Part shown: in pieces, positions 27,153 to 45,552 of the stretch
Numbering within the stretch: the first letter of the stretch is position 1
Layout: each line of letters begins with the position of its first letter
Source: Mycobacterium sp.
GTDB taxonomy: Bacteria; Actinomycetota; Actinomycetes; Mycobacteriales; Mycobacteriaceae
Length of the DNA: 64,000 nt
NCBI RefSeq assembly: GCF_004298145.1
Contig: NZ_SCRH01000030.1
Coordinates: forward strand, 68,526-132,525
Direction: 5' to 3'
Made by a program: the position numbers and the translations under genes
Notes under the pieces: generated by a model
What the model was told of the DNA's origin: nothing
The model's database searches: none
Seen by the model: only the letters and a program-made list of their open reading frames with translations

Positions 27153-27788
27153 ATGCCCACCGACAGCGTCACACCCAATGGGCAAACGCGGCGCGAAGAG
27201 TTGCTGGCCGTTGCCACCAAGCTCTTCGCGGCGCGCGGCTATCACGGCACGCGGATGGACGATGTGGCCGACGTGATCGGCCTCAACAAGGCGACGGTCT
27301 ATCACTACTACGCCAGCAAGGCGCTGATTCTGTACGACATCTACCGCCAGGCCGCCGAGGGCACGCTGGCCGCCGTCCACGACGACCCGTCCTGGACGGC
27401 GCGCGAGGCGCTCTACCAGTACACGGTCCGGCTGCTCACCGGCATCGCCAGCGATCCCGAGCGGGCCGCCGTGTACTTCCAGGAGGCGCCCTACATCACC
27501 GAGTGGTTCACCAGCGAGCAGGTCGCCGAGGTCCGCGAGAAGGAAGTCCAGGTTTACCACCACGTGCACGGCCTCATCGACCGCGGGATCGCCAGCGGCG
27601 AGTTCTACCCGTGCGACTCGCATGTGCTGGCGCTGGGCTACATCGGCATGACGCTGGGCAGCTACCGCTGGCTGCGGCCCAGCGGACGACGCTCGGCCAA
27701 GGAGATCGCGGCCGAGTTCAGCACCGCGCTGCTGCGCGGACTGATCCGCGACGAGGCGATCCGCACGACGTCGCCGCTGGGACCCTAG
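27153..27788 (+). CDS. TetR family regulator (Rv0158-like)
   Basis: RREELLAVATKLFAARGYHGTRMDDVADVIGLNKATVYHYYASK; follows pnt as in H37Rv. Confidence 0.92.
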   Translation: MPTDSVTPNGQTRREELLAVATKLFAARGYHGTRMDDVADVIGLNKATVYHYYASKALILYDIYRQAAEGTLAAVHDDPSWTAREALYQYTVRLLTGIASDPERAAVYFQEAPYITEWFTSEQVAEVREKEVQVYHHVHGLIDRGIASGEFYPCDSHVLALGYIGMTLGSYRWLRPSGRRSAKEIAAEFSTALLRGLIRDEAIRTTSPLGP

Positions 27789-32131: not shown

Positions 32132-32677
32132 TCAACTGCCCTTGATGCCGACCGCGTGCCTCAGCTGCGCCAGGAACTGTTCGGCGTCGTCGCTGCGCAC
32201 GATGTAGTGCGAGATCGCGATCCGGATCACCGTCGCCGCTTTCACCGCGGCGTTGGGTCCGGGGAGGTGCCGTTGCAGGCCTTCGCGCATCTGCGGGATG
32301 ACCCAGGAGAACTGGGCGATGGTGTGCTCGGGCTCGACGTCGACCATGCGCACCCCGGAGTACGAATGCTGGTAATCGACGATGAAGCGCAGCACGGCGT
32401 CCAGCTTGTCCACGCCCTTGAGGCCCGCGGTGGCCTTGATCAGGCCGCTTTCGAAGATCTGTCGCTCGTAGCTCGAAAACGCCGACAGCAACTCCTCTTT
32501 GGAGGCGAACCAGCGGTACAGCGTCGGGCGGGAGACGCCCGCCTGGGTGGCCACGTCGGACAGGCTGAGCTTGGTCTTGCCGTTTCGGCCGAGCACCTCG
32601 GCGGTGGCCGCCAGGATGCGCTGACGGGTCGAGGTGTCGGTGTCGGCGATCGTCGCCGCCCGGGCCGGCTGGCTCAT
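32132..32677 (-). CDS. TetR family regulator (candidate regulator of the catabolic block)
   Basis: RQRILAATAEVL...LSLSDVATQAGVSRPTLYRWFASKEELL. Confidence 0.92.
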   Translation of the reverse strand: MSQPARAATIADTDTSTRQRILAATAEVLGRNGKTKLSLSDVATQAGVSRPTLYRWFASKEELLSAFSSYERQIFESGLIKATAGLKGVDKLDAVLRFIVDYQHSYSGVRMVDVEPEHTIAQFSWVIPQMREGLQRHLPGPNAAVKAATVIRIAISHYIVRSDDAEQFLAQLRHAVGIKGS

Positions 32678-32719
32678 GATGCACGCTTTACGAGGTGTGT
32701 CATGGTTTTCGCCTCCACG

Positions 32720-33541
32720 TTAGGCCCGAGGGGGGCGCCGGCGCACCAGCACCGACTGCTGGATGGCGCCGACCGCGCCCTGCTCGTCGAACAATGTTCC
32801 GATCGTCGTCCCGATCCCGTCCGGCCCGTAGCTGGTCTCCGCCCGGATCCCGATCCATTCTCCGTCGGGGACACGAAATACGTGCACGGCCAGATCGGTG
32901 TTGAGAAACGTCCACTTGGTGATGTCGAGCTTGCTGCCGATGCCGTTGGCGCAGTCGGCCACCGCGAACAGCCGTTCCAGCTGGGTCATGGACTCGCCGT
33001 TGACCAGATCGACCGTCGGGCTGATCCACGATTCGCCGGGGCCTTCGCTGAGCGGCTCGGTCAGCCACAGCCACTGGAGACTGTGCACGTAATTGCGGTC
33101 CCAGTCCCTCGCCTTGAGGTTGCGGTCGTAGGCCTCGGTTCGGGGACGGGGCAGGGGGGCCGACGCGTGCGCCAGCACCCGCGTGTCCTGGTGCTGCAAC
33201 CGCCAGCCGCTGGCGCGCGCCACCGGCCGGGCGCCGCCGTCGGGGCCCGGGGCCAGCATCTCGGCGCTGACGAGTTCGATCTGCTTGCCGGGGCGCTGCA
33301 CGTGGGAGCGCACCCAGAGGTCACCCTCGGCCGGCACCCCGCCCAGCAGGTCGATGACGACCCTCGACAGGCGCGTGTCGTCGCGCTGTTCGCACCGCTG
33401 AAGCGCCCGCACCAGCAACGCCGACACCGGACCGCCGTGCTGGATCGCCGCCGACCAGGTGCCGCGCGCCAGATCGGTCGCCCGGAACTTCTCACCCGGC
33501 GCGTCGGCCGGGTCGATCAGCTCGTAGTAGGCGTCGGTCAT
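32720..33541 (-). CDS. Double-hotdog thioesterase family protein
   Basis: GTWSAAIQHGGPVSALL, ADCANG, FLNTDLAVH, W.G......GPDGIG; start ATG 33541 or TTG 33547. Confidence 0.85.
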   Translation of the reverse strand: MTDAYYELIDPADAPGEKFRATDLARGTWSAAIQHGGPVSALLVRALQRCEQRDDTRLSRVVIDLLGGVPAEGDLWVRSHVQRPGKQIELVSAEMLAPGPDGGARPVARASGWRLQHQDTRVLAHASAPLPRPRTEAYDRNLKARDWDRNYVHSLQWLWLTEPLSEGPGESWISPTVDLVNGESMTQLERLFAVADCANGIGSKLDITKWTFLNTDLAVHVFRVPDGEWIGIRAETSYGPDGIGTTIGTLFDEQGAVGAIQQSVLVRRRPPRA

Positions 33542-33560
33542 CGTCAACCTCTTCGGAGTG

Positions 33561-34388
33561 TCAGGGCAGGCCGGCGCCGGGAGTGGTCACCGTGACGGCG
33601 TCCAGCCGGGAAAGCCGGGTGCCGACCAGGCGCTGGGGATACGCTTCGGTGCTCGACAACAGAAACAGCGTGCGGCGCTGCGGGCCGCCGAGGGCGCACG
33701 CGATGGCGATGCGGTCGCCCATGTCGATGCGGTCCGTCACGTCGCCGCCGGCCACGATCCGCTCGAACTGATGGGCCAGGGTCATCGCCACCCATACGCC
33801 CCCTTCGGCGTCCAGCGCGATGCCGTCGGGCGGCCCGTCCAGTCCCTCGGCAAAGATCCGCCGGTCGGTCAGTCCACCGTCATCGCCGATGGAAAACGCG
33901 CTCAGCCGCCGGCCCGTCGATTCGGCGACGATCAGCGTCCCGCGGTCCGGGGTGATCGCCATTCCGTTGGGGAAGTCGAGGTCATCGGCCACGATAGTGG
34001 CCCCGGTGGCGTTGTCGTCGGGGTCGAGGCGGATGATGACGCCGCCGCGCAGCGCCTGGCATCCGATGTAGGCCCGGCCCACGTGGTCGATGACCATGTC
34101 ACCGAGGTTGGCCGGCGCCACGTCGGCGAGATCGGCGATGGTGACGACGGTTTCGCCGTCATAGCGCAGCACCTGCCGGTCCTCCGTGGAAGCGATCAGC
34201 AGCGACCCGTCGGGACGGAAGCCCAGACCCGACGGCGAGTGCCCGGGCAGCGGCAGCGTGGTCAGCGCGCCGCCCATGGTCGAGGTGTGGACCGCTTCGC
34301 CCAGCATGTCGGAGAACCACAGCAGGCCCTCGAACCAGCGCGGCCCCTCGCCGAAGCAGAACCCGTTGGCCAGCGGCTCGGGAATCAT
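33561..34388 (-). CDS. SMP-30/gluconolactonase/LRE family beta-propeller hydrolase
   Basis: FGEGPRW, WFSD, NLGDM, FPNGMAITPD, PDGIALD.EGGVWVA. Confidence 0.9.
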   Translation of the reverse strand: MIPEPLANGFCFGEGPRWFEGLLWFSDMLGEAVHTSTMGGALTTLPLPGHSPSGLGFRPDGSLLIASTEDRQVLRYDGETVVTIADLADVAPANLGDMVIDHVGRAYIGCQALRGGVIIRLDPDDNATGATIVADDLDFPNGMAITPDRGTLIVAESTGRRLSAFSIGDDGGLTDRRIFAEGLDGPPDGIALDAEGGVWVAMTLAHQFERIVAGGDVTDRIDMGDRIAIACALGGPQRRTLFLLSSTEAYPQRLVGTRLSRLDAVTVTTPGAGLP

Positions 34389-34415
34389 CCGCTCATGCCT
34401 CTGGCCAACCTTCCG

Positions 34416-34441
34416 CTTTACAAAACACCGAAAAAGTGTCA
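34416..34441. promoter_or_regulatory. Catabolic-block operator candidate, copy 1
   Basis: CTTTACAAA-ACACCGAA-AAAGTGTCA; TTTACA-N14-TGTCA. Confidence 0.65.
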
Positions 34442-34460
34442 TGCACCGCGGGTGCCGGTG

Positions 34461-34937
34461 TCAATCTGCCGATCGGGCGAGTTCGGTCGCGACGGCCTCG
34501 TGGTACGCGTCGATCCTCGCCGGGTTGGCCTGGATGAATAGCTGATCGGGCAGGGGCGCATGCCGGTACGCCTCGATCGTCATGGTCCGGGAGAACAGCG
34601 TGACGTCCTGGCCCGGCCTGGTGAAGTGGTAGGACACGGTGATCCGGCCCTCCATCCCGCCGTTCCCGTCGCGATCATGGCCCAGGCGGCCGATCGAGGT
34701 GAACACGAACAGGGTCGGGCGCACGGCGGCGGCCAGCTGCCAGCTGAAGATCCGGTTGCCGTCGGGTCCCGCTTCCTCCCAGGTGTCACCGACCTTGAGG
34801 GGCAGCTCCGGCAAGCCGCCGATGTGCGCGCTGCCGGGGTAGGTCTTGGCCCAGTTGGCCGGGTTGGTGACGAAGTCGTACACGGTCTCGGCGGACTGCG
34901 TGAACGCGGTCTCTGAAGTGGTGGTCACGATACCCAA
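34461..34937 (-). CDS. SRPBCC (START/polyketide cyclase) family protein
   Basis: AETVYDFVTNPANW..TYP, LKVGD.W.E; helix-grip pattern. Confidence 0.72.
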   Translation of the reverse strand: MGIVTTTSETAFTQSAETVYDFVTNPANWAKTYPGSAHIGGLPELPLKVGDTWEEAGPDGNRIFSWQLAAAVRPTLFVFTSIGRLGHDRDGNGGMEGRITVSYHFTRPGQDVTLFSRTMTIEAYRHAPLPDQLFIQANPARIDAYHEAVATELARSAD

Positions 34938-35003
34938 AGGTGTTGTCTCCCTGTGTGTTCCGTTGGCGGGTTCATCGGCTGGGCCGCGGTCTTGTTAGCC
35001 AAG

Positions 35004-35029
35004 CTTTACAAATCCTACTCAAAGTGTCA
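35004..35029. promoter_or_regulatory. Catabolic-block operator candidate, copy 2
   Basis: CTTTACAAA-TCCTACTC-AAAGTGTCA, between the divergent SRPBCC and thioesterase II genes. Confidence 0.65.
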
Positions 35030-35069
35030 CGCTGAGCCGAGTGCTGTCAGTGCGAGAGGTGGAGCGGAT

Positions 35070-35960
35070 TTGACGAAAGCTTCCGAGGAATCCGAGCAGA
35101 CCGAGTGGACGGTGCAGGGCCTGCTGGACCTGTTCGACGTGCGGGCCGACGGGCAAGACCGGTTCACCGGTGACACCGGGATCGCCGCCGGCGACGAACG
35201 CCAGGTGGTGGAGGGCACCCAGGTGCTCGCCCAGGCGATTGTCGCGGCGGCCAAACGATTTCCGGACAAGTCGGTGCGCTCGGCGCACGCGGTGTTCTCC
35301 CGTGCCGTGACCGTCGGGCCGTCGATCGAGCTGGTGCTCGACGTCGTGGCCGAGGGCCGGTCCACCGCGACCGCCGTCGTCGCCGTGCATCAGAACGGCC
35401 GGCGCTGCCTGAGCATCACGGTGCTGGCCGATGTCCCGACCGCCGATGTCATCCGTCACCACTTGCCGCGGCCCGACGTCGCCGCGCCGGCCGACGCGCA
35501 CCACTCCCCGATGCCGATGGTCGGACGCGAGCTGCGCCTGGTGGACGTCGTCGACGTGAACAGCCCCGAGGAGGTCGGCCCGCCGGAGCTCTACGCGTGG
35601 CTGCACTACGACCCGATCCCGACCCGCGACGACCTGGCCAAGGCGCTGCTGGCGTACTTCACCGGCCACCTGGGCATCTCCACCACCATGCGCGCGCACC
35701 CGGGCATCGGCACCGCCCAGGCGCACCTGACCGTGTCCACCGCACCGATGAGCATCTCGGTCGCCTTCCACGAGCCGGTGCGCTGGGACGGGTGGCTGCT
35801 CTACACGCACGAGAGCACTCAGGTCGGCGCTGGAATGTCCTACGTGCGTGGGGCTGTGCACTCCGAGGAGGGTGAGCTGCTGGCGTCCTTCGCGCAGGAG
35901 GCGCTGATCCGCCCGCTGCGGACCAGCGATACCGCGATCGATTCCCGCGCACGCTTCTGA
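35070..35960 (+). CDS. Acyl-CoA thioesterase II (TesB-like)
   Basis: LLDLFDV, VEGTQVLAQAIVAAA, SV.S.H..F, FHEP..WDGWLLY, GELLASFAQEAL; TTG 35070 after GAGGTGGAG. Confidence 0.82.
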   Translation: MTKASEESEQTEWTVQGLLDLFDVRADGQDRFTGDTGIAAGDERQVVEGTQVLAQAIVAAAKRFPDKSVRSAHAVFSRAVTVGPSIELVLDVVAEGRSTATAVVAVHQNGRRCLSITVLADVPTADVIRHHLPRPDVAAPADAHHSPMPMVGRELRLVDVVDVNSPEEVGPPELYAWLHYDPIPTRDDLAKALLAYFTGHLGISTTMRAHPGIGTAQAHLTVSTAPMSISVAFHEPVRWDGWLLYTHESTQVGAGMSYVRGAVHSEEGELLASFAQEALIRPLRTSDTAIDSRARF

Positions 35961-35965
35961 CGGCC

Positions 35966-36886
35966 ATGTACTTCACCATCACCCACCCCATGCACAGCTA
36001 TCCCTACAATCCGGAGCTGGTGAGTGGGGACGGCATCGGAAAGGTGGCCGCCGCCGCCGAGGCGGCCGGCATCCACGGCTTCGGCTTCACCGACCATCCC
36101 GCACCGTCGCAGCGCTGGCTGGAGGCCGGCGGCCACGACGCGGTGGATCCCTTTGTCGCTTTGAGCTTCGCGGCGGCCGCGACGACCACGCTGCGGCTGA
36201 TCCCTAACATCGTGGTGCTGCCGTACCGAAACCCGTTCGTGGTGGCCAAATCCGGCGCCACCCTGGATCTGCTCTCCGGGGGCCGTTTCACGCTCGCGGT
36301 CGGTTTGGGCTACCTCAAGCGCGAGTTCGCGGCGCTGGGGGTCAGCTACGACGAGCGCGCCGAGCTCTTCGAGGAATCCCTGCAGGTAATCCGGGCGATC
36401 TGGACCGGCGACGACATCACCTTCGAGGGAAAGCATTTCAGCGCGCGCGGCATCACCGCGCATCCCCGGCCCGTCAGCCGCCCGCATCCGCCGATCTGGA
36501 TCGGCGGCAACACCACGACCGCCCGGCAACGGGTCGCGCAATACGGCGACGGCTGGTGCCCGTTCCCCGCCCCGCCACAACTGGCCCAGACGGCGGGTAC
36601 CGCGGCCATCACTTCCACCGAGGAGCTCTCGGTGGCCATCGACGATCTGCGGCGCCGCTGTGAGGGAATCGGAAAAGACTGGTCCGCATTGGATATAACC
36701 TTCACCAGCTTCGAGGGCGGCAGTCCCGCCGATGACGCGTTCAACGCCGACGCCTACCTGGACGGCCTGGACAAGCTGGCCAAGCTGGGCGTCACCTGGG
36801 TCAGTGTCCACCTACCCGGCGACAGCATGACGCATGCACTCGAGACTCTCGACCGTTTCCGCACCCTCGTGATCGACGCGGCCTGA
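35966..36886 (+). CDS. LLM-class F420-dependent oxidoreductase
   Basis: FTDHPAP, DPFVALSFAAAATTTLRL, LPYRNP, ATLDLLSGGRF, HPPIWIGG, DGW.P. Confidence 0.88.
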   Translation: MYFTITHPMHSYPYNPELVSGDGIGKVAAAAEAAGIHGFGFTDHPAPSQRWLEAGGHDAVDPFVALSFAAAATTTLRLIPNIVVLPYRNPFVVAKSGATLDLLSGGRFTLAVGLGYLKREFAALGVSYDERAELFEESLQVIRAIWTGDDITFEGKHFSARGITAHPRPVSRPHPPIWIGGNTTTARQRVAQYGDGWCPFPAPPQLAQTAGTAAITSTEELSVAIDDLRRRCEGIGKDWSALDITFTSFEGGSPADDAFNADAYLDGLDKLAKLGVTWVSVHLPGDSMTHALETLDRFRTLVIDAA

Positions 36887-38062
36887 ATGGACTTCTCCCG
36901 TGTGGCGCTCTCACCCGAGGACCAGGATTTCCACGATCAGTTCCGGGAGTTCATCACCGAACATGTCACCGACGAGGTGCGGCGGCGCGATCGTGAGACC
37001 GGTGAAAACTTCAGTGAGCAAGTGCATTTGGCATTGGGCGAAGCGGGTTATCTGGCGTCGGACTGGAGGCTGGAGTCCGAAGGCGGCTTCGATCCGGTGC
37101 GGCGCCGGATCTTCCACCTCGAGATCGGTCGCGCCCATGCCCCGTGGTTCCACTGGGGCACCACGGCGGTCGTCGCGCGGTTGGTGCAGCGGTTCGGGGC
37201 AGCCGAACTCGTCGACGCGGTGCTGCCGGGCGTGCTGTCCGGTGAGATCCGGCTATGCCTGGGCTACACCGAGCCCGAGGGCGGCTCCGACGTCGCCACC
37301 TGCAAGACGCGTGCCGTGCGCGACGGTGACGGATGGATCATTAACGGCTCCAAGATGTTCACCTCGAACGCGCAGAACGCCAAGTATGTCTTCCTGCTCA
37401 CCAACACCGATCCGCAGGGACGCAAGCACAAAAACCTGACCATGTTTCTGGTGCCGCTGGATTCGGCGGGCATCGAGATCCAGGGCATCCGCACGCTGGA
37501 TGGTGACCGCACCAACATCGTGTATTACAGCGACGTGCGGGTCGATGACCGCTACCGGATCGGTGAGGTCAACGGTGGCTGGACGGTGATGCGGTTCGCC
37601 CTCGACGCCGAACATGGCATCACCGATATCGAAGACCATGGCCTGCAGAATATTTCGATGCTATCAGAGCACGGCCACCTGCTGGCCGAGGCGGCCGACG
37701 GAGTCGCGGCGATCCTGTCCACGCCCGACGCGAACGGGTGGCGCCCGATCGACGACGAGTCGACGAAATATCGGCTGGGCCGCGGCATGGCCCGCATCGA
37801 GGCGGCGCTGTCGACTCCCGGAACGTACGGACGCGTGGCGCTCATCCAGACAATGCGTGAAGTCTCGCCGGAATTGATGGACATGCTAGGGGTGGCATCG
37901 GCATTGCCCACCGACACAACGGGTTCCGCGGACGACGGTGCCATCGAGTTCATCTTCCGCCACGGCGTGCCCGCCGGGATCTACGGCGGCACCATGGAGG
38001 TGTTCCGCAACATGATCGCCCAGCACGAGCTGGGGCTCGGGCGTCCGAGCTACGGCCGCTGA
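36887..38062 (+). CDS. Acyl-CoA dehydrogenase (FadE26/FadE29-like subunit)
   Basis: CLGYTEPEGGSD, INGSKMFTS, IYGGT.EVFRNMIA...LGL. Confidence 0.88.
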   Translation: MDFSRVALSPEDQDFHDQFREFITEHVTDEVRRRDRETGENFSEQVHLALGEAGYLASDWRLESEGGFDPVRRRIFHLEIGRAHAPWFHWGTTAVVARLVQRFGAAELVDAVLPGVLSGEIRLCLGYTEPEGGSDVATCKTRAVRDGDGWIINGSKMFTSNAQNAKYVFLLTNTDPQGRKHKNLTMFLVPLDSAGIEIQGIRTLDGDRTNIVYYSDVRVDDRYRIGEVNGGWTVMRFALDAEHGITDIEDHGLQNISMLSEHGHLLAEAADGVAAILSTPDANGWRPIDDESTKYRLGRGMARIEAALSTPGTYGRVALIQTMREVSPELMDMLGVASALPTDTTGSADDGAIEFIFRHGVPAGIYGGTMEVFRNMIAQHELGLGRPSYGR

Positions 38063-38742
38063 CCGGGCAGCTCGGCCAGCACGTCGACGCGGGCGTCGTC
38101 GAAACTCAGAAATCCCTTGATGGGCAGGCTTTCCGGTGGTGGATCGGGGTAACACCAGGCGACGTCCTGCACCACGCGGTCACCCGAGGCGAACGACCAA
38201 TACGTCGCAAAGCCTTTGTAGTTGCAGTAGCTCGACGTCTCGGATTGCCGCAGCAGATCGGTGCGCACGTGTGCCGGGTCGACATACAGCCTCGGCCCCA
38301 GCGCGGTCTCGAAAAGAATCATCGTGTCGTCCGTGTCGACCAGCGTGGTGCCGGCGACGCGGACGCGCAGGCGGCGTTGTGTCGGACGGCAGTCGACGCG
38401 GTGATAGGGATTGGGTGGGTAGTGGACGAGTTTGCGGCCCTCCTCGAACCAGGTGTCGACGGCGTCCCACGGGACGTGAACGAAACCCGGTGCCTCCGGC
38501 TCCGGCTCACTCGGCAGGTCGCCGACGTCGTCGGCGGCGAAGACGTAGCACAGCGGTCGGCCCCGTCGGTGCACCATCAGCGCCCGCTCGGTGTCGATCA
38601 CCCGCCGCCCGTCCCTGACCGCCTGCACGCGCCGGGGATGCGGCTCGACGTAGACCCCGATGTCCAGGCCGCCGGGTATCGCGGGCGAGAAGCGCCCCGC
38701 CGGATCGCTGCTGAGCGGACCACTTCCTGCTACCAGACTCAT
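38050..38742 (-). CDS. Tandem DUF427 protein
   Basis: EPHPRRVQA, NPYHRVDCRP, LFET.L.PR.Y, S.CNYKG.A.YW, DVAWCYPDP; TAGGCT -10 7 nt before ATG (leaderless). Confidence 0.85.
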   Translation of the reverse strand: MSLVAGSGPLSSDPAGRFSPAIPGGLDIGVYVEPHPRRVQAVRDGRRVIDTERALMVHRRGRPLCYVFAADDVGDLPSEPEPEAPGFVHVPWDAVDTWFEEGRKLVHYPPNPYHRVDCRPTQRRLRVRVAGTTLVDTDDTMILFETALGPRLYVDPAHVRTDLLRQSETSSYCNYKGFATYWSFASGDRVVQDVAWCYPDPPPESLPIKGFLSFDDARVDVLAELPGQRP

Positions 38743-38769
38743 GAAGCCAAGCCTAGAAGGCCGTCCGGC

Positions 38770-38817
38770 GTGGGGCCTATGCACCAAATTGGGGCAGTTC
38801 CGGTGCATAGCGCCCAC
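38770..38817. repeat. 16-bp imperfect inverted repeat between divergent leaderless genes
   Basis: GTGGGGCCTATGCACC-N16-GGTGCATAGCGCCCAC (14/16 pairing). Confidence 0.6.
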
Positions 38818-38839
38818 ACTCGGCGCCTAGGGTAAACCC

Positions 38840-40009
38840 ATGGCGGGACCGGTGGAAGGCGTCAAAGTCGTCGAGCTCGGGGTGTGGGTGGCCGGACCGG
38901 CCGCCGGCGGCATCCTGGCGGACTGGGGCGCCGACGTGATCAAGATCGAGCCGCCGACCGGTGATCCGGCGCGCATGTTCGGCCGGATGCTGGGATGCGA
39001 CCTCGGTCTCAACCCGCCGTTCGAAATGGACAACCGGTCCAAGCGCAGCGTGGTGCTGGACCTGGGCACCGACGCGGGTCGCGGCACCGCGTTCGAATTG
39101 CTCGCCGGCGCAGATGTTTTCCTGACCAATGTGCGTCCCGGCGCGCTGCAACGACTCGGGCTGGACTTCGAATCGGTGTCGGTGGCCAACCCCCGCCTGG
39201 TCTACGGGCTGATCACCGGCTACGGCGAAAGCGGGCCGGACGCCGATCGCGCCGCCTACGACGTGGCCGCGTTCTGGTCCCGGGCCGGCGTGGCCCACCT
39301 GCTCACCCGGCCCGGCGAGACGCCGCCGTTTCAGCGCGGCGGCATGGGCGACCACTCGGCCGGGATGACGATGGCCGCGGCGGTCTGCGCGGCACTGCTC
39401 GCGCGCCAGCGCACCGGAACGGGCCAACTGGTGACGACCTCGCTGTACCGGCAGGGCGCCTACACCGTCAGCTTCGACCTGAACACCTATCTGATGAGCG
39501 GCCAGCCGATCGCGATCGGGCAACGCGATTCCATGGGCAACCCGTGCATGAACAACTACACCGCCCAAGACGGGCGGCGGTTCTGGATCGTGGGCCTGGA
39601 GCCCGAGCGGCACTGGCCGGCGCTGTGCCGCGCGGTGGGCCGCCCCGAGTGGCGCGACGATCCCCGGTTCGCCGATGCCCGCTCCCGCGCGGTCAACTCG
39701 GCGGTGCTGATCGCTGCGCTCGATGAGATCTTCGCGACACGCCCGCTCGACGAGTGGGCGCAGGTATTCGCCGGCGAACCGGATTTCTTCTGGTCACCGG
39801 TCAATACGCTCGAGGACGTCGTGGCCGACGAGCAGTTCCACGCCGCGGGCGGCATTGTCGACGTACCCGACGGGGACGCCGCGGTACCGATGGTGGCCAC
39901 CCCGGCGGATTTTCACGGCACCCCCTGGGCACCGCGTTCTGCGGCACCAGAACTCGGGCAGCACACCGAGGAGGTCCTGGCCGACCTCGAGGCGCGCCGC
40001 GGTTCGTGA
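38840..40009 (+). CDS. CaiB/BaiF family III CoA-transferase
   Basis: LADWGADVIKIEPPTGD, NRSKRSV.LDL, ADVFLTN.RPG, GMGDH (catalytic Asp), AP.LGQHT.EVL; TAGGGT -10 6 nt before ATG. Confidence 0.93.
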   Translation: MAGPVEGVKVVELGVWVAGPAAGGILADWGADVIKIEPPTGDPARMFGRMLGCDLGLNPPFEMDNRSKRSVVLDLGTDAGRGTAFELLAGADVFLTNVRPGALQRLGLDFESVSVANPRLVYGLITGYGESGPDADRAAYDVAAFWSRAGVAHLLTRPGETPPFQRGGMGDHSAGMTMAAAVCAALLARQRTGTGQLVTTSLYRQGAYTVSFDLNTYLMSGQPIAIGQRDSMGNPCMNNYTAQDGRRFWIVGLEPERHWPALCRAVGRPEWRDDPRFADARSRAVNSAVLIAALDEIFATRPLDEWAQVFAGEPDFFWSPVNTLEDVVADEQFHAAGGIVDVPDGDAAVPMVATPADFHGTPWAPRSAAPELGQHTEEVLADLEARRGS

Positions 40010-40023
40010 CGGCCCGCCGGGAC

Positions 40024-40049
40024 CTTTACAAATTTCGCCAGAAGTGTCA
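40024..40049. promoter_or_regulatory. Catabolic-block operator candidate, copy 3
   Basis: CTTTACAAA-TTTCGCCA-GAAGTGTCA upstream of the nine-gene P450/BVMO operon. Confidence 0.65.
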
Positions 40050-40170
40050 CGCTGTGCGGTGAGTCGCTTCACCCGACGCGTGCAGCGGCTACACGCCCTT
40101 GGGAAAGCCCATGACAAGCGCTTGAGGCCCGCCAGCGGAGTCGTTGCGGGCAGTGGTGAGGAATGGATCG

Positions 40171-40734
40171 ATGGTCGCTCCAACGTTCGACATCAGCAAG
40201 AGCAGCGCCGCCCGAGCAACCCAGGCCAACGGCGAGGGCCTGCGGTATCGACTGGACGTCGTCGCGGCCAGCGCCGTCGATGTCGTGCAATCGGCCGGCG
40301 GTTGGCTCTACGACCGTGCGATGGCCGGCTGGGAGGTGACCGTGTTGCTCCCGCAGGGCTGCGACACCCGGTCGCTGCGGATCCTGGGCGTGCGGGCATC
40401 GGACCTCGAGTCATCCCTCGCCGCGCTGGCGGCGGGCTCGACAAGCCTGGCCGTCAGCGCCGAGGCATTCACCACCTACGCGCGGGTGCGTGCCGCCGTG
40501 CTCGAATCGCTGGACAACCGGCTCACGGAGGTCGCGTTGTGGGGTGACGGGTGGCCGCTGGAAGTGAACCGTACGACCACCCGCGCCCAACACCTGCTCA
40601 GCGGCGCCGCGCGCACGTTCAAGGGTTATGCGCTTGCGGCAGAGGGTATTTCGGATACCGCCGTCGCTCCCGCCGAGAAGCTGCTGTGCGACGTGGGTTC
40701 GGGGGCCGACTCAGAGCTGATCCGGCTCGACTAG
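40171..40734 (+). CDS. Conserved hypothetical protein
   Basis: 187 aa with host-like codon usage; YRLDVVAASAVDVV.SAGGWLYDR.MAGW.VTV motif recalled from other mycobacterial hypotheticals; no catalytic motif recognised. Confidence 0.7.
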   Translation: MVAPTFDISKSSAARATQANGEGLRYRLDVVAASAVDVVQSAGGWLYDRAMAGWEVTVLLPQGCDTRSLRILGVRASDLESSLAALAAGSTSLAVSAEAFTTYARVRAAVLESLDNRLTEVALWGDGWPLEVNRTTTRAQHLLSGAARTFKGYALAAEGISDTAVAPAEKLLCDVGSGADSELIRLD

Positions 40735-40738
40735 GCCT

Positions 40739-41443
40739 ATGAAGAAGTACCACAAACACGCGCTGCTTTACCTACACGAGACGATCTCGTTGGGATCCGG
40801 ACGACGCGACCCCTTCACCGAGATCTTCGCCGACACCTATCAGCCGATGATGGAACAACTGGGCGCCCGGCTGTTCGCGATCTGGGAATCCACCCCGTAC
40901 AACGGTCACTGGCCGCAGGTGACGGTGATCTGGGAGATCGACGGGTTCGCCGACTACGCCCGGATCGGCGCCGCTCAGGCTCGCGGTGGCAGCCACGAGG
41001 CCGCGGCCGGTAACTGGGCGGCGTTTCTGGCCGACGTCGGCGCGTCGGGCGAGGGGCGAATCATGTACGCCGGACCCAGCAACAGGACGCTCGCCCAGCT
41101 GCGCGAGGCCAATTTCACTGCGCCGCTGGTGATCCAGGAGATCATGCAGACCAAGCCGGGCCGCCAGGACGACTACATCCGGGAGCTGGAGCGGCTCTAC
41201 GTGCCGTGGTCGGAACGTACCGGGAAGCGCTGGCTCGGTTCGTTCACCACCACTTTCCGCTACAACGAAGTCATCCACTACTGGGCGTTGGACGGGGGAT
41301 GGGACTGCTTCGCCGAGCACTACCCCTCGTGGAAAGAGAGCCCGCCCGCCGAGATCATCACCTGGATGAGCGTGGCACCCGCGCTGCGTGACGGCTGGGA
41401 AGATTCCATCCTGGCCGCCCTACCGCCATCGCCGCTGCAGTGA
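40739..41443 (+). CDS. Tandem NIPSNAP-like dimeric alpha+beta barrel protein
   Basis: Two similar halves (LYLHETI..../LVIQEIM.TKPGR..DY; GARLFAIW/GKRWLGSF; VTVIWE/VIHYWA). Confidence 0.6.
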   Translation: MKKYHKHALLYLHETISLGSGRRDPFTEIFADTYQPMMEQLGARLFAIWESTPYNGHWPQVTVIWEIDGFADYARIGAAQARGGSHEAAAGNWAAFLADVGASGEGRIMYAGPSNRTLAQLREANFTAPLVIQEIMQTKPGRQDDYIRELERLYVPWSERTGKRWLGSFTTTFRYNEVIHYWALDGGWDCFAEHYPSWKESPPAEIITWMSVAPALRDGWEDSILAALPPSPLQ

Positions 41444-42681
41444 CCGAGCGCCAAAGACCCATGAACCACACCGACTTCAGCTACGACCCCTTCGACGACG
41501 CGGTGATGGCAAACCCCTTGCCCTACTACCGAATCCTGCGCGACCACCACCCGGTCTACTACATGCCGCAGTGGGACACCTTCGCGCTGTCCCGTTTCGA
41601 GGACATCTGGAAAGTGCTGGAAGTCAACAACGGCACCTTCGTCGCCTCGGAGGGCACGTTGCCGGCGGCATCGGTTCTGGCCCAACACAACACCGGGCCG
41701 GTCGACGACCCGCCGCTGCAGCCGCTGCCGTTCCACGCCGTGTTCGACGCGGACCTCTACGGTGAGATCCGGCGCACCCACTCGCGGCCGTTTCGGCCAC
41801 GTTCGGTCACCGACCTCGAGGGCAGGATCAGGGCGCTGGCCAACGAACGCCTCGACCTGCTGCTGCCGCGCGGCTCATTCGACCTGACCCAGGACTACGG
41901 CGGCGTCGTGGTAGCCGCCATCGTCTGCGAACTCCTGGGCATACCAACCGATCTCGCGCCGCAAGTCCTCGCCGCGGTCAATGCCGGCAGCCTCGCCCAG
42001 CCCGGCGTCGGCGTGGACACCGGGCAGGCGCGCCCCAACTACTTCGAGTTTCTGCTGCCGGCGGTCGCCCGCCGCCGCGCCGGAGAGTCCGGGGCACCAC
42101 TGGACGTGGTCGACGGCCTCCTCGGCTATCACCTGCCCGACGGCCGCGCCCTCGACGACATGGAAGTCGCCACCCAGATGCTGTGCATCTTCATCGGGGG
42201 CACCGAAACGGTGCCCAAAATCGTCGCCCACGGGCTGTGGGAGCTCAGTCAGCGACCCGACCAGCTGGCCGCCGTCCGCGCCGATCCCGAGAGCAACGTG
42301 CCCGTCGCCCGGGATGAGATAGTCAGATACTGCGCGCCTGCGCAGTGGTTCGCGCGAACGGCGCGCAAGCCCTTCGACCTTCACGGTCAAACCATCAACC
42401 CCGGCCAGCGCGTCATCACCCTGCTCGCGTCGGCCAGCCGCGACGAGCGGGAATACCCCGAGCCCGACGAATTCGTCTGGGACCGGCCCATCCGCCGCTC
42501 GCTGGCGTTCGGCCGCGGCCAGCACTTCTGCATCGGATACCACCTGGCGAGGCTGGAAATGGATGTGCTGCTTGCCGAATGGCTGCGCCGGGTGCCCGAC
42601 TACGCGATCCAGGCCGAAACCGCCACCCGGCTGCCGTCCAGCTTCCAATGGGGTTGGAACAACATCCCGGTGGAGGTTTGA
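41440..42681 (+). CDS. Cytochrome P450
   Basis: I-helix IGGTETV, EIVR, heme motif FGRGQHFCIG; GTG overlaps the upstream stop. Confidence 0.95.
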   Translation: MTERQRPMNHTDFSYDPFDDAVMANPLPYYRILRDHHPVYYMPQWDTFALSRFEDIWKVLEVNNGTFVASEGTLPAASVLAQHNTGPVDDPPLQPLPFHAVFDADLYGEIRRTHSRPFRPRSVTDLEGRIRALANERLDLLLPRGSFDLTQDYGGVVVAAIVCELLGIPTDLAPQVLAAVNAGSLAQPGVGVDTGQARPNYFEFLLPAVARRRAGESGAPLDVVDGLLGYHLPDGRALDDMEVATQMLCIFIGGTETVPKIVAHGLWELSQRPDQLAAVRADPESNVPVARDEIVRYCAPAQWFARTARKPFDLHGQTINPGQRVITLLASASRDEREYPEPDEFVWDRPIRRSLAFGRGQHFCIGYHLARLEMDVLLAEWLRRVPDYAIQAETATRLPSSFQWGWNNIPVEV

Positions 42682-42682
42682 C

Positions 42683-43651
42683 GTGTGGTCCTACCGGATC
42701 ATCGCCCCGTACCTGTTCGAGCGGACCACGATCGCCGACAAGACACCCGAATGCCTGACCGACGGGCAGGTGCTGCTGCGGTTTTCGGCCGCCGGCGTCT
42801 GTGGCAGCGACCTGCCCGCGTTTCGCGGGGCCAAGGGCCGACTCCCGGGTGACGACGGCCGCAGCGGTCCCGAGAAAGACGGCTTCCCCATCCATGAGGT
42901 CGCCGGCGAGGTGATCGCCAGCCGGCATCCCGCACACCGCCCCGGAGACCTCGTGGTCGGCTGGGCGTCCGAGTTCGACGGCATGATGGAACGCGTGGTC
43001 AGCAACGGTGACGGGTTGGCGCCATACGATCCGGCGCTGACCCCGGCGCAGGCTATCGGGCTGCAACCGCTGGCCTGTGTGCTCTACGCCTGCGAGCAGC
43101 TGGGTGACTTGGCCGGCCGGCACGTCGCGATCATCGGCCAAGGATCGATCGGCCTGCTGTTCTCCTATGTCGCCAAGGCGGCCGGTGCGCGGCGCGTCAC
43201 CGGGATCGACCCGATCGATCGTCGTGATCTGGCAAGGGCATTCGGCGTCGACGATCCGGTGCGGGCCACCAGTGACCGCTGGGCGAGTCAGCTCGAGCCC
43301 GGGGATCGCGCCGACGTCGTCATCGAGGCGGTCGGTCACCAGGTCGCCACCTTGGCGCACGCCATCGACGCCACCGCCCCCGGCGGCACCGTCTTCTACT
43401 TCGGCGTGGCCGACGACGAGATGTATCCGATCAGCATGCGGGCCATGCTGCGCAACAATCTGACACTGAAATCCGGTGTGACGCTTGACCGGCGGCGGAT
43501 GCTGGAGCTCGCGAGCAAGTTCACCGCCGAGCATCCCTACCTGCTCGGTGCCTACCTCACCCACACGTTCGGTGTCGAGGCGGTGCAGGACGCATTCGAG
43601 CTGGCCTGCCGACCGGTTGCCGAACGCATCAAGATCGCGATCGCCGGGTGA
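42683..43651 (+). CDS. Zinc-binding MDR dehydrogenase lacking the structural-zinc lobe
   Basis: GVCGSD, HEVAGEV, GQGSIG; no CxxCxxC; GGAGG RBS before GTG 42683. Confidence 0.85.
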   Translation: MWSYRIIAPYLFERTTIADKTPECLTDGQVLLRFSAAGVCGSDLPAFRGAKGRLPGDDGRSGPEKDGFPIHEVAGEVIASRHPAHRPGDLVVGWASEFDGMMERVVSNGDGLAPYDPALTPAQAIGLQPLACVLYACEQLGDLAGRHVAIIGQGSIGLLFSYVAKAAGARRVTGIDPIDRRDLARAFGVDDPVRATSDRWASQLEPGDRADVVIEAVGHQVATLAHAIDATAPGGTVFYFGVADDEMYPISMRAMLRNNLTLKSGVTLDRRRMLELASKFTAEHPYLLGAYLTHTFGVEAVQDAFELACRPVAERIKIAIAG

Positions 43652-43661
43652 GGGACCGACC

Positions 43662-44420
43662 GTGACGAACGCTTCGCCGAGCAATCTGCAGCTGGCACTG
43701 AGCAGCAAATCCGTGATATTCGGCGGCTGGGTCACCGGCCCGACATTGCTGGGACCCGAGGAATTCGCACGTGCCGGTTACGATTACGTCGGATTCGACG
43801 CCCAACACGGCTATCTCGACGACGCCGACATCGCGGGCATGCTGCGCCGCACCGAACACCTGCCCCTCGGCACCGTGGTGCGCCTACCCAACGCCGAAGC
43901 CGCACCCATCGGGCGGGTGGCCGACGCCGGCGCCGACGCCGTCGTCATCGCGATGATCGAGTCGGCCGATCAGGCCGCCGCGGCGGTGGCCGCGACCCGC
44001 TACCCGCCGGGCGGCGTGCGTAGCTTCGGACCGCTGCGCGCCAGCCTGGGTCACGACCCCGCCGCCCACGAATCCCGGGTCAGCGTGTTCGCGATGATCG
44101 AAACCGCGGCGGCGCTGGCGGACATCCGGGAAATCTGCGCCGTCGACGGCCTGACCGGAATCTACGTCGGCCCCGCCGATCTCGCGATCTCCCTGGGCGC
44201 CGGTGTGGTCGGCGCGACCCGACATCCGGAGGTGCTCGACGCGATAACGCGCGTCCAACGCGCGGCGTCGGACGCGGGCCTGGTCACCGGCATCCACGCC
44301 GGGGACGGCAACACGGGTCACGCCATGGCGCGATTGGGGTTTGGCATGATCACCCTGGCCGCCGAGTCGCAGGCGCTGCGGCGGGGGGCCGCGGAGCACC
44401 TGCGTGAGGCGACGCAATGA
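43662..44420 (+). CDS. HpcH/HpaI family class II pyruvate aldolase
   Basis: FDAQHG, VVRLP (Arg), RYPPGGVRSFG, AMIET, YVGPADL. Confidence 0.9.
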   Translation: MTNASPSNLQLALSSKSVIFGGWVTGPTLLGPEEFARAGYDYVGFDAQHGYLDDADIAGMLRRTEHLPLGTVVRLPNAEAAPIGRVADAGADAVVIAMIESADQAAAAVAATRYPPGGVRSFGPLRASLGHDPAAHESRVSVFAMIETAAALADIREICAVDGLTGIYVGPADLAISLGAGVVGATRHPEVLDAITRVQRAASDAGLVTGIHAGDGNTGHAMARLGFGMITLAAESQALRRGAAEHLREATQ

Positions 44421-44827
44421 CCACCCGCCTTTTGGATGACCACGCCGCGATCCGCGAACTGATCGCCGGCTACGCGCTCGCACTCGACGCCGGTGACTTC
44501 GACGCGTGCGTGCAGCTGTTCGCTCCCGACGGTGAATTCCTGGTCTACGGCACGACGTTCGCGGGCCATGACGGCATCGCCGGCATGTTCCGCGACGCCC
44601 CGCGCGGCCTGCATCTGACCGGCGTGTCACGGATTGCTGTCGAGGCGGAGACCGCCACCGCCAGATCGCAGGTGTTGTTCGTCCGCGCCGGCGATCTGCA
44701 GCTGCGGCCCGCCCTCTACGACGACGAACTGACGCGCATCACCGGTCACTGGCGCTTTGCGCGGCGGCGGTGCAGCTTCATCACCAGCGGTGGATTGGCC
44801 GACAGTCCGGAGGGCGGGCCGGCATGA
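44417..44827 (+). CDS. SnoaL_4/NTF2-like protein (BaiE/LinA-like fold)
   Basis: AIRELIAGYALALD.GD....LFAPDG, LHLTG, YDD.L.R..G.WRF..R. Confidence 0.78.
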   Translation: MTTRLLDDHAAIRELIAGYALALDAGDFDACVQLFAPDGEFLVYGTTFAGHDGIAGMFRDAPRGLHLTGVSRIAVEAETATARSQVLFVRAGDLQLRPALYDDELTRITGHWRFARRRCSFITSGGLADSPEGGPA

Positions 44828-45552
44828 ACCCACGTGTCGCGTTGGTGACCGGCGCCGCCGGCGGGCAGGGCCGGGCCATCGCCGAACGGCTACGCGCCAA
44901 GGGGTTTTCGGTGGCCGCGTGCGATCGGCGCACCGACGAACTCATCGCGGCGATACGCGAATCGCGCGACCAGGAGCTGATCGCGGTCGAGCTCGACGTC
45001 ACGTCGGAGCAGCAGTGGAACTCGGCCGTCGCACAGGTCGTCGACCGCTTCGGGTCGCTGAGCACGCTGGTCAATTGCGCCGGGGTGCTGCACCGGGCGT
45101 CGCTGAGCGAGGAGACGGCCGAAGGTTTCGAAAACTCTTGGCGGGTCAACTGTCTGGGCGCCTTCCTCGGCGTGCGCGCGGTGCTGGAACACCTTCGCGA
45201 GGCGCCGGATGCGTCCATCGTGAACATCTGCAGCACCGGCGCGATCCGCCCTTTCCCGCAGCACGGTGCCTACGGCTCGTCGAAGTGGGCACTGCGCGGC
45301 CTGACCCAGACCGCCGCGGCCGAACTCGCCCCCTCCGGCATCCGCGTCAACGCCGTATTTCCCGGACCGATCGCCACATCGATGCTCGACGAGGCCACCC
45401 AGACCCGGCTGGCCGAGGCGTCGATGTTCGGGCGGATAGGCCGGGCCGATGAAGTCGCCGACGCCGTCGCCTTCCTGGTCTCCGGCGAGGCGTCGTTCAT
45501 CACCGGCTCCGAACTGATTATCGACGGTGGTCAATGCCTGCAGATCCGATGA
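44824..45552 (+). CDS. Short-chain dehydrogenase/reductase
   Basis: TGAAGGQG, LDVT, NCAG, YGSSK, NAVFPG. Confidence 0.92.
   Translation: MNPRVALVTGAAGGQGRAIAERLRAKGFSVAACDRRTDELIAAIRESRDQELIAVELDVTSEQQWNSAVAQVVDRFGSLSTLVNCAGVLHRASLSEETAEGFENSWRVNCLGAFLGVRAVLEHLREAPDASIVNICSTGAIRPFPQHGAYGSSKWALRGLTQTAAAELAPSGIRVNAVFPGPIATSMLDEATQTRLAEASMFGRIGRADEVADAVAFLVSGEASFITGSELIIDGGQCLQIR

What the first reader, a model, noticed from the sequence alone, without database searches (positions are those of the whole stretch)
34416..40049. Three identically spaced copies of a new operator motif define a regulon within the block
Seen: CTTTACAAA-N8-(A/G)AAGTGTCA at 34416, 35004 and 40024, each in an intergenic gap, a quasi-palindrome T(T/G)ACA-N14-TGT(C/A)A. 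In copies 2 and 3, TTTACA lies exactly 17 bp before CACGCT, so the site coincides with a -35/-10 promoter. Copy 1 has only minus-strand neighbours, which argues for orientation-independent protein binding. The same half-sites with a 5-nt spacer (TTTACG-AGGTG-TGTCA, 32687-32702) precede the TetR gene. Inference: the repressor box of the block TetR. It does not match the KstR or KstR2 consensus.
Basis: partly seen in the sequence, partly recalled or inferred. Interest (0 to 1): 0.7.

Follow-up and report, generated by a model that had tools for sequence, protein, structure and literature searches.

The report
Conserved TetR repressor box in mycobacteria
The three repeats are real copies of a roughly 30-bp DNA box, conserved across most Mycobacterium species, that almost certainly serves as the binding site of the neighbouring uncharacterised TetR repressor and overlaps the promoters of an oxidative, acyl-CoA-type catabolic gene set; it is a solid new regulon prediction of an ordinary kind.

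Summary
CTTTACAAA-N8-RAAGTGTCA occurs at 34416, 35004 and 40024, with 0 expected by chance.

**Own genome.** The 6.1-Mb genome holds only one more copy, 60 kb beyond the window, upstream of a fadD-like gene.

**Extent of the box.** The full element is about 30 bp: C-TTTACAAA-N9-AAGTGTCA-nG. It has a dyad (C·T·ACA / TGT·A·G) whose arms lie about 23 bp apart.

**Conservation.**
- It is present in 163 of 201 genomes of the genus, usually as 2-4 clustered copies.
- It is nearly absent from 33 other genera of the family.

**Link to the TetR at 32132-32677.**
- 162 of 174 genomes with an ortholog have the box; 1 of 27 without an ortholog has it.
- All 80 loci chosen only by TetR homology carry it.
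- In many species a copy ends 8 nt before the TetR start codon.

**Promoter overlap.** The CGCT tail that makes the -10-like CACGCT is kept in 107 of 137 boxes with a forward gene but in only 4 of 93 without one. So the box overlaps a real forward promoter.

**The "5-nt-spacer" element.** This element before the TetR gene is the ancestral autoregulatory box carrying a 9-nt deletion.

**Limits.** Binding, repression and the effector are inferred, not shown. I found no prior description. Verdict: a new member of a known kind.

The parts
34414..34445 (+). Box 1 (CGC-TTTACAAA-ACACCGAAA-AAGTGTCA-TGCA), upstream of the minus-strand SGL-thioesterase-TetR operon. Its orientation is reversed relative to that operon, and there is no gene in its forward direction.
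   Evidence: PWM 42.6 bits. Orthologous boxes lie upstream of SGL in all compared genomes. The tail is TGCA, not CGCT, as in other reverse-only boxes.
35002..35033 (+). Box 2 (AGC-TTTACAAA-TCCTACTCA-AAGTGTCA-CGCT), in the divergent gap between the SRPBCC-like gene (minus) and the TesB-like thioesterase-LLM-ACAD unit (plus). It contains TTTACA-N17-CACGCT.
   Evidence: PWM 47.8 bits. An identical box is found in relatives G090, G118, G035 and G142.
40022..40053 (+). Box 3 (ACC-TTTACAAA-TTTCGCCAG-AAGTGTCA-CGCT). It starts 13 nt after the stop of the CoA-transferase gene and lies upstream of the 9-gene plus-strand unit. It is a forward-only site.
   Evidence: PWM 48.5 bits. Orthologous boxes lie upstream of the 196-aa gene or the NIPSNAP gene in other genomes.
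32682..32705 (-). Remnant of the ancestral TetR-proximal (autoregulatory) box. On the TetR sense strand it reads CCATGACAC-AC-CTCGTAAAG-CGTG, followed by 8 nt and then the ATG. It carries a 9-nt internal deletion.
   Evidence: Alignment with close relatives that keep GTGACAC-N11-TTCGTAAAG-N8-ATG; the whole box is deleted in L055.
32132..32677 (-). TetR-family regulator (181 aa), the proposed binder of the box. It is the last gene of the SGL-thioesterase-TetR operon.
   Evidence: PF00440, E 1.9e-13. All-helical TetR fold, pLDDT 77.7. Orthologs in 174 of 201 genomes of the genus. Below the cut-off of every named TetR equivalog.
32720..34388 (-). SMP-30/gluconolactonase-like protein (33561-34388; the longest ORF runs to 34442) and a 4HBT_3 acyl-CoA thioesterase (32720-33547), co-directional with the TetR (gaps of 13 and 42 nt).
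   Evidence: Pfam. Order conserved in relatives.
34461..34927 (-). SRPBCC-like 155-158-aa protein with no Pfam hit, divergent from box 2.
   Evidence: GC3 0.91. Orthologs at 71-95% identity lie next to boxes in L032, L033, L034 and L045.
35070..38062 (+). TesB-like acyl-CoA thioesterase (TTG 35070-35960), F420-type luciferase-like oxidoreductase (35966-36886) and acyl-CoA dehydrogenase (36887-38062), downstream of box 2.
   Evidence: Pfam and NCBIfam.
40174..47974 (+). Nine-gene unit downstream of box 3: 196-aa unknown, NIPSNAP-like, P450, Zn-ADH, HpcH/HpaI-type aldolase, SnoaL-like, SDR, Baeyer-Villiger monooxygenase, esterase.
   Evidence: Pfam. The same gene string follows a box in 15 or more compared genomes.

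Best explanation
**What it is.** The repeats are operator boxes of the local TetR-family repressor (32132-32677). The core is C-TTTACAAA-N9-AAGTGTCA-nG, about 28-32 bp. It has an imperfect dyad (C·T·ACA ... TGT·A·G) centred between positions 12 and 13.

**How it sits on promoters.** Each box lies on top of promoter elements.
- In the forward direction, TTTACA acts as a -35 and TGT-CACGCT as an extended -10.
- In the reverse direction, a promoter that I could not define fully reads out of the TTTACAAA end. TAAAGT ends 7 nt before the ATG of the TetR in species that keep the proximal box, a spacing that leaves no room for a Shine-Dalgarno and points to a leaderless mRNA.

**Proposed mechanism (inferred).** Without effector the TetR occupies the boxes and blocks RNA polymerase at 4-5 transcription units: SGL-thioesterase-TetR (so the TetR represses itself), the SRPBCC-like gene, thioesterase-LLM-ACAD, the 9-gene P450/BVMO unit, and a distant fadD-like gene. 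A pathway intermediate, plausibly an acyl-CoA or a ketone/lactone, would release it.

**Binding geometry (inferred).** The conserved arms are about 23 bp apart, too far for one TetR dimer. Two dimers per box, as for QacR or Ms6564, is the likeliest geometry.

**Shown versus inferred.** Shown: existence, rarity, conservation, genomic association with the TetR, use in both orientations, and -10 conservation that depends on a forward gene. Inferred: binding by this TetR, repression, stoichiometry and effector.
For: - **Rarity.** 3 copies against 0 expected in the window. 4 strong sites in 6.1 Mb.
- **Conservation.** The box is in 163 of 201 genomes of the genus. The reversed-pattern control gives 6 hits in all. 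Positions outside the 32-bp element carry almost no information, so this is a footprint, not a repeat element.
- **Association with the regulator.** Orthologs occur in 174 of 201 genomes. 162 of 174 of these have the box, against 1 of 27 without an ortholog; Fisher p = 2e-22. In 80 of 80 loci selected only by TetR homology there are 171 boxes above 20 bits and 0 in the reversed control, all upstream of the TetR.
- **Autoregulatory position.** A box lies directly upstream of the TetR gene in L031-L037, L041, L043, L044, L046 and L047. In many slow growers it ends exactly 8 nt before the ATG.
- **Acts in trans.** In G011 the TetR with its box lies 4.5 Mb from the SGL cluster, which has its own box.
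- **Paralog.** A 51%-identical paralog has an almost identical recognition helix (VSRPTLYRYF against VSRPTLYRWF). It has a related box 8 nt before its own start, divergent from a P450-BVMO operon.
- **Both orientations are used.** 93 boxes are reverse-only and 35 forward-only.
- **Promoter overlap.** The CGCT tail is present in 107 of 137 boxes with a forward gene against 4 of 93 without. T28 is present in 111 of 137 against 18 of 93. G26 and C27 stay conserved in both classes.
- **Regulator fold.** TetR_N HTH and TetR fold.
Against: - No binding, expression or TSS data.
- Co-occurrence is not corrected for phylogeny. The box and the TetR travel in the same gene cluster, so any other cluster gene would show a similar correlation.
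- The dyad is imperfect, about 8 of 12 paired positions. The inner blocks (ACAAA / AAGTG) are asymmetric yet invariant, which a simple homodimer model does not explain.
- The -10-like CACGCT matches TATAAT at only 2 of 6 positions, and an E. coli-type consensus scan does not call these boxes promoters.
- 12 genomes with a TetR ortholog have no box within 1 mismatch; a few show diverged versions.
- The reverse-direction promoter could not be defined.
Confidence: 0.8

Rival explanations
1. The box is purely a promoter for a dedicated alternative sigma factor (a two-block, fixed-spacing, asymmetric motif), and the TetR binds somewhere else.
For: The motif has two invariant blocks at a fixed distance and is clearly asymmetric. 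TTTACA-N17-CACGCT has promoter geometry. The CACGCT hexamer behaves like a -10: it is conserved only when a forward gene is present.
Against: 93 of 234 boxes have no gene in the forward direction and would drive antisense transcription. Examples are window box 1, box 4, the TetR-proximal boxes and the TetR-paralog-to-orf494 boxes. Yet their core is as conserved as elsewhere. No sigma or anti-sigma gene accompanies the clusters in the loci examined. The outer C(-1)/G(26) dyad is conserved whether or not a forward gene is present.
Confidence: 0.07
2. The box is bound by a different trans-acting regulator that is not adjacent to it. Candidates are the paralogous TetR on contig C50, the Rv0158-like TetR at 27153-27788, or an unlinked factor. 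The local TetR would recognise another site.
For: The paralog has a nearly identical recognition helix and a related box, so cross-binding is likely. Many fast growers carry 2-3 paralogs, each next to a box.
Against: Many slow growers have a single ortholog at E <= 1e-40 and still carry 2-4 boxes. The Rv0158-like TetR is absent from most box-bearing loci of fast growers. No other regulator is consistently adjacent. The 8-nt box-to-ATG spacing is conserved at both the TetR ortholog and its paralog.
Confidence: 0.08
3. The TetR binds the box but acts as an activator or a dual regulator (as FasR does), not as a repressor.
For: FasR, a TetR-family activator, is among the closest structural matches.
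Against: The box spans the -35 to -10 region of the forward promoter. At the TetR gene it ends 8 nt before the start codon. Those positions are typical of steric repression. By established knowledge, most TetR-family members next to catabolic operons are repressors.
Confidence: 0.05

Closest known systems
KstR / KstR2 (TetR repressors of cholesterol catabolism in mycobacteria)
   Same: A TetR-family repressor is conserved across mycobacteria. It has multiple operator copies in intergenic gaps of a lipid/alicyclic oxidative catabolic regulon, is autoregulated, and probably has a CoA-thioester-type effector.
   Different: The operator is different. There is no TnnAACnnGTTnnA or AnCAAGnnCTTGnT in the block. 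The protein scores 27.8 bits against the 280-bit cut-off of the KstR model. The box is about twice as long, with arms 14 bp apart. The regulon is missing from 27 of the 201 genomes sampled, most of them among the smaller ones.
QacR, Ms6564, CgmR and SlmA-type TetR proteins that bind long operators as two dimers
   Same: The operator is long (about 28-32 bp) and dyad-symmetric, with outer conserved arms too far apart for a single dimer. Ms6564-DNA, SlmA-DNA and Rv0078-DNA complexes are among the structural matches.
   Different: Here the central 9 bp are almost free and the inner parts of the arms are asymmetric. Stoichiometry is untested. Sequence identity to these proteins is about 17-20%.
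FadR (Bacillus, Thermus) and FasR: acyl-CoA-sensing TetR regulators
   Same: Closest folds by Foldseek (FasR with C20-CoA, Thermus FadR with lauroyl-CoA). The regulon is rich in acyl-CoA enzymes: two thioesterases, ACAD, CoA-transferase nearby, and a fadD-like gene.
   Different: Only about 20% identity and TM about 0.6. NCBIfam FasR score is 29 against a cut-off of 330. The effector is unknown.
The 11 predicted TetR motifs of Balhana et al. 2015 (PMC4482099)
   Same: [quoted passage not shown]
   Different: That survey covered 30 regulators named by M. tuberculosis Rv numbers. This TetR is not in that list. The motif logos are not held as text, so I could not compare them directly.

Membership tests
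TetR-family repressor with cognate operator | The regulator has an N-terminal TetR-type HTH | tested here: met
   PF00440 TetR_N, E 1.9e-13, residues 21-66
TetR-family repressor with cognate operator | All-helical two-domain TetR fold with a C-terminal ligand/dimerisation domain | tested here: met
   AF2 model with 8 helices, pLDDT 77.7. 39 PDB TetR structures at Foldseek E <= 1e-3.
TetR-family repressor with cognate operator | The operator is a (pseudo)palindrome | tested here: inconclusive
   Dyad positions are conserved: C-1/G26, T1/A24, A3/T22, C4/G21, A5/T20. But T0, T2, A6 and A7 have no symmetric partner, and the arms are 14 bp apart.
TetR-family repressor with cognate operator | The operator lies next to the regulator gene and/or adjacent target genes (autoregulation) | tested here: met
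   A box lies directly upstream of orthologs in many genomes. 80 of 80 homology-selected loci carry boxes upstream. In this window autoregulation runs through the operon promoter at box 1.
TetR-family repressor with cognate operator | The protein binds the operator and a ligand releases it | not testable with these tools
   Needs EMSA or footprinting and a ligand screen.
KstR regulon | Operator TnnAACnnGTTnnA and a KstR-equivalog protein | tested here: not met
   One chance-level match in the window, at 16711, outside the block. NF033703 scores 27.8 bits against a cut-off of 280.
KstR2 regulon | Operator AnCAAGnnCTTGnT | tested here: not met
   0 matches in the window.
Directional sigma-factor promoter only | Every copy has a gene downstream in one fixed orientation | tested here: not met
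   93 of 234 boxes have a gene only in the reverse direction and 35 only in the forward direction. Window boxes 1 and 3 are opposite cases.
Two-dimer (QacR-type) operator | Four TetR subunits per operator of about 28 bp | not testable with these tools
   Only the spacing of the arms, about 23 bp centre to centre, suggests it.

The most novel reading that the evidence does not exclude
The box is a composite bidirectional promoter-operator module, and its sequence is far more conserved than the regulator itself: about 20 near-invariant positions across some 160 species, against 58-98% protein identity. A TetR would read it in an unusual way, with arms two helical turns apart and invariant asymmetric inner blocks. 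That could be a cooperative pair of dimers, or a TetR-RNAP co-recognition mode not yet described. The module would switch a genus-wide pathway, so far unstudied, for an unknown alicyclic, ketone or lactone lipid substrate. The block lies beside the mce1 lipid-import locus, and the regulon is missing from 27 of the 201 genomes sampled.
Probability: 0.2. Interest if true: 0.6.

Novelty: new member of a known kind. Interest (0 to 1): 0.42.

Why it matters
It links a regulator of unknown function, found in about 85% of sampled Mycobacterium species, to a precise operator and a target set of roughly 16-20 genes. The targets include a P450, a Baeyer-Villiger monooxygenase, an esterase, a lactonase-like protein, an aldolase, thioesterases, an ACAD and a fadD-like gene. 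This makes the regulon directly testable by EMSA, knockout and ligand screening, and offers a way to find the substrate of an uncharacterised oxidative catabolic pathway that lies beside the mce1 lipid-import locus.

The box is short, extremely specific (4 sites in 6 Mb) and apparently tight, so with its repressor it might also serve as an orthogonal inducible switch for mycobacterial genetics.

The forward-gene-dependent conservation of CACGCT is a clean comparative example of how to separate promoter bases from operator bases. It also suggests that a non-canonical extended -10 (TGT-CACGCT) is functional in mycobacteria.

Tried and rejected
- **Chance or repeat element.** Rejected: 0 expected by shuffling, no conservation outside the 32 bp, and only 4 copies in the genome.
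- **KstR / KstR2 boxes.** Rejected.
- **CRP-type site (TGTGA-N6-TCACA).** Rejected by inspection: wrong spacing and wrong half-site order.
- **Directional promoter only.** Rejected by orientation statistics.
- **The 5-nt-spacer element as a designed variant operator.** Rejected in favour of a 9-nt deletion remnant.
- **Consensus sigma-70 scan.** It does not call the boxes, because CACGCT matches TATAAT at only 2 of 6 positions. It flags only an implausible ATGACA-16-CATCAT that overlaps the TetR start codon.
- **Literature.** Searches for the motif strings, for M. marinum locus tags near the ortholog, and for TetR/P450/BVMO regulons found nothing relevant. The locus tags searched were guessed from the ortholog's accession number, so that negative result is weak. 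The Balhana 2015 survey does not list this regulator.
- **PDB sequence search.** No close solved homolog.
- **Earlier scan notes.** They gave only context on the catabolic block and nothing on the motif.
- **Reverse-direction -10.** I could not define it. TAAAGT fits in slow-grower TetR-proximal boxes, but TAAAGC or TAAAGG elsewhere does not fit the mycobacterial TANNNT rule.


Full report
**1. The observation.**
- Copy 1, 34416: CTTTACAAA-ACACCGAA-AAAGTGTCA.
- Copy 2, 35004: CTTTACAAA-TCCTACTC-AAAGTGTCA.
- Copy 3, 40024: CTTTACAAA-TTTCGCCA-GAAGTGTCA.

With up to 3 mismatches allowed the window still holds only these three. Shuffles give 0.00. TTTACA-N17-CACGCT is present in copies 2 and 3, and TTTACG-AGGTG-TGTCA is at 32687-32702.

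**2. Gene context.** I called genes by GC3 and annotated them with Pfam and NCBIfam.
- The window carries the backbone pntAB - Rv0158-like TetR - ... - adhE1 - mce1R (GntR) - fadD5 - mce operon. An oxidative catabolic block of about 20 kb is inserted into it.
- Box 1 lies between the stop of an SRPBCC-like gene (34461) and the SMP-30/SGL gene (likely start 34388). SGL heads the minus-strand unit SGL - thioesterase - TetR (32132-32677).
- Box 2 lies in the divergent gap between the SRPBCC-like gene and the unit TesB-like thioesterase - F420-type LLM - ACAD.
- Box 3 starts 13 nt after the CoA-transferase stop. It precedes a nine-gene unit: unknown 196 aa, NIPSNAP-like, P450, Zn-ADH, HpcH/HpaI aldolase, SnoaL, SDR, BVMO, esterase.

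**3. Rarity in the genome.** The assembly is 6.14 Mb at 66.7% G+C; the window is C22:68526-132525.
- With up to 2 mismatches there are four sites. The fourth, C22:193043-193067 on the minus strand, lies upstream of a 511-aa fadD-like gene.
- A 32-nt PWM trained only on sites from other genomes scores the four at 48.5, 47.8, 42.6 and 34.7 bits.
- The next hit, 24.9 bits, lies 8 nt upstream of a 51%-identical TetR paralog on contig C50. That paralog is divergent from a P450-BVMO-glyoxalase-SDR operon.
- Only two further positions out of 12.27 million exceed 12 bits.

**4. Conservation.**
- The core pattern, with up to 1 mismatch, occurs in 163 of 201 genomes of the genus, typically as 2-4 copies within 5-15 kb. 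The reversed pattern gives 6 hits in all.
- Among 143 genomes of 33 other genera of the family, exact boxes appear only in one sister genus, in 2 of its 3 genomes.
- A frequency matrix from 89 unique sites shows near-invariant positions beyond the search pattern: C at -1 (88 of 89), T at 0 (81), then C, G, C, T after TGTCA (73, 77, 77, 68). Information is close to zero further out.
- The element is therefore about 32 bp: (A)nC-TTTACAAA-wyay-N5-AAGTGTCA-CGCT.

**5. Which protein?**
- In twenty 20-kb loci from 19 other genomes, boxes sit directly upstream of orthologs or paralogs of the 32132-32677 TetR. They also sit in the divergent SGL / NIPSNAP-P450-...-BVMO gap, and upstream of the 196-aa gene, the TesB-like thioesterase, the SRPBCC/ACAD pair and a second P450 divergent from the TetR.
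- The TetR is present (E <= 1e-40) in 174 of 201 genomes. 162 of these have the box, against 1 of 27 genomes without it (p = 2e-22, not corrected for phylogeny).
- In a test that does not select on the motif, all 80 named slow-grower loci fetched by TetR homology alone (M. colombiense, M. arosiense, M. scrofulaceum, M. triplex and others) carry at least one box above 20 bits. That is 171 boxes in total and 0 in the reversed control, all upstream of the TetR and all in one orientation.
- In G011 the TetR with its own box lies 4.5 Mb from the SGL cluster, which has another box, so the factor acts in trans.
- No other regulator is consistently adjacent.
- The paralog's recognition helix is almost identical (VSRPTLYRYF against VSRPTLYRWF), which fits its related box.

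**6. The element before the TetR gene.**
- In most slow growers the thioesterase-TetR gap holds a full-length variant box, GTGACAC-N11-TTCGTAAAG, ending exactly 8 nt before the ATG.
- In the M. colombiense group it is degraded. In several genomes it is gone.
- In this window it carries a 9-nt internal deletion (alignment A1).
Autoregulation here presumably runs through box 1 at the head of the operon.
- The fixed 8-nt distance leaves no room for a Shine-Dalgarno. This suggests a leaderless TetR mRNA whose -10 (TAAAGT) lies inside the box. That step is an inference from the known mycobacterial promoter rule TANNNT plus 6-8 nt to the TSS.

**7. Promoter or operator?**
- I selected 234 unique boxes on the core only, then classified each side by which strand is coding.
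- The CGCT tail that completes CACGCT is present in 107 of 137 boxes with a gene in the forward direction, but in only 4 of 93 with a gene only in the reverse direction.
- T28 follows the same pattern: 111 of 137 against 18 of 93.
- G26 and C27 remain conserved in both classes.
- Hence T28 and C25 behave as promoter (-10) bases. C(-1) and G26, with T1/A24, A3/T22, C4/G21 and A5/T20, form the orientation-independent dyad expected of a protein site.
- Window boxes 1 and 4 are reverse-only and have the tails TGCA and TGCT. Boxes 2 and 3 have forward genes and the tail CGCT.
- Caveat: many of the 234 boxes are orthologous, so the independent evidence amounts to roughly 4-5 site classes on each side.
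- An E. coli-type consensus scan does not call the boxes.
- The reverse -10 could not be defined in general.

**8. The regulator.**
- It has a TetR_N HTH.
- The AF2 model is all-helical (pLDDT 77.7).
- The closest PDB folds are a Rhodococcus RHA1 TetR, FasR with C20-CoA, Thermus FadR with lauroyl-CoA, Rv0078-DNA and Ms6564-DNA, at TM about 0.6 and about 20% identity.
- It falls far below the cut-off of every named NCBIfam TetR equivalog and has no close solved homolog by sequence.
- Orthologs carry only automatic names.

**9. Mechanism proposed.**
- TetR dimers occupy the box and occlude the -35 and -10 of the forward promoter and the reverse promoter. Two dimers per box is likely, because the arms are about 23 bp apart.
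- This represses 4-5 units, including the regulator's own operon.
- A pathway intermediate releases the repressor. The gene content suggests this order of reactions: P450 hydroxylation, ADH/SDR oxidation, Baeyer-Villiger oxygenation, esterase/lactonase hydrolysis, CoA activation, ACAD/aldolase, thioesterase.
- Binding, repression, stoichiometry and effector are all inferences.

**10. Comparison and novelty.**
- This works like KstR/KstR2 and other catabolic TetR repressors, but it belongs to none of the named families.
- I found no prior description of the motif or regulator in the searchable literature. The 2015 survey of mycobacterial TetR motifs covers only regulators with M. tuberculosis Rv numbers and does not list this one.
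- By my own knowledge of the H37Rv map, the Rv0158-Rv0162c interval there holds PE3, PE4 and Rv0161 and no such TetR. This was not tested here.
- Verdict: a well-supported, previously undescribed operator-regulator pair, a new member of a known kind. The operator geometry is somewhat unusual and the regulon is clearly testable.

Noticed in passing
window 27153-49095: The catabolic block of about 20 kb sits between an Rv0158-like TetR and adhE1, just upstream of mce1R-fadD5-mce1. Its content varies between species: the TesB-LLM-ACAD, DUF427 and CoA-transferase genes are present, absent or rearranged, and the SnoaL gene is often missing.
   Followed up: partly
genome contig C50:17022-21637: A TetR paralog (51% identity) has a 24.9-bit variant box (TTTACATA-N8-CAAATGTCA) 8 nt before its GTG. 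It is divergent from a P450-BVMO-glyoxalase-SDR operon. This looks like a second, probably cross-talking, member of the same regulator/box family.
   Followed up: partly
genome contig C41:58633-62676: A weak box (17.0 bits) lies upstream of a P450. Nearby is a paralog of the unknown 196-aa protein, sharing the motif YRLDVVAA...GGW..DR, together with another TetR and another P450. The 196-aa family has no Pfam or NCBIfam hit.
   Followed up: no
genome contig C22:192150-195632 (outside the window): Box 4 precedes a fadD-like gene (511 aa) and a 98-aa ORF. An enoyl-CoA hydratase-like gene lies upstream, and an unrelated TetR (226 aa) is convergent downstream. The box is conserved in close relatives G118, G066, G090 and G193.
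   Followed up: partly
window 38817-38840: The DUF427 gene and the CoA-transferase gene are divergent with only a 22-bp gap and no box here. In L031 and L046 the DUF427 gene shares a weaker box (…AACTGTAATATC) with the 196-aa gene.
   Followed up: no
loci L032, L037, L039 (other genomes): In several fast growers a TetR paralog is followed, on the same strand, by a box and then a gene of about 494 aa that I did not annotate. Those boxes lack the CGCT tail.
   Followed up: no
window 16711-16724: A single match to the KstR pattern TnnAACnnGTTnnA (TTCAACCCGTTTGA), at chance level: 14 of 100 shuffles give at least one.
   Followed up: no
window 32681-32700: The remnant box region can form a small hairpin, which the scan flagged as terminator-like on the plus strand (GCACGCTTTACGAGGTGTGT followed by a T-rich tail). 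The flanking genes are on the minus strand, so it is probably meaningless.
   Followed up: no
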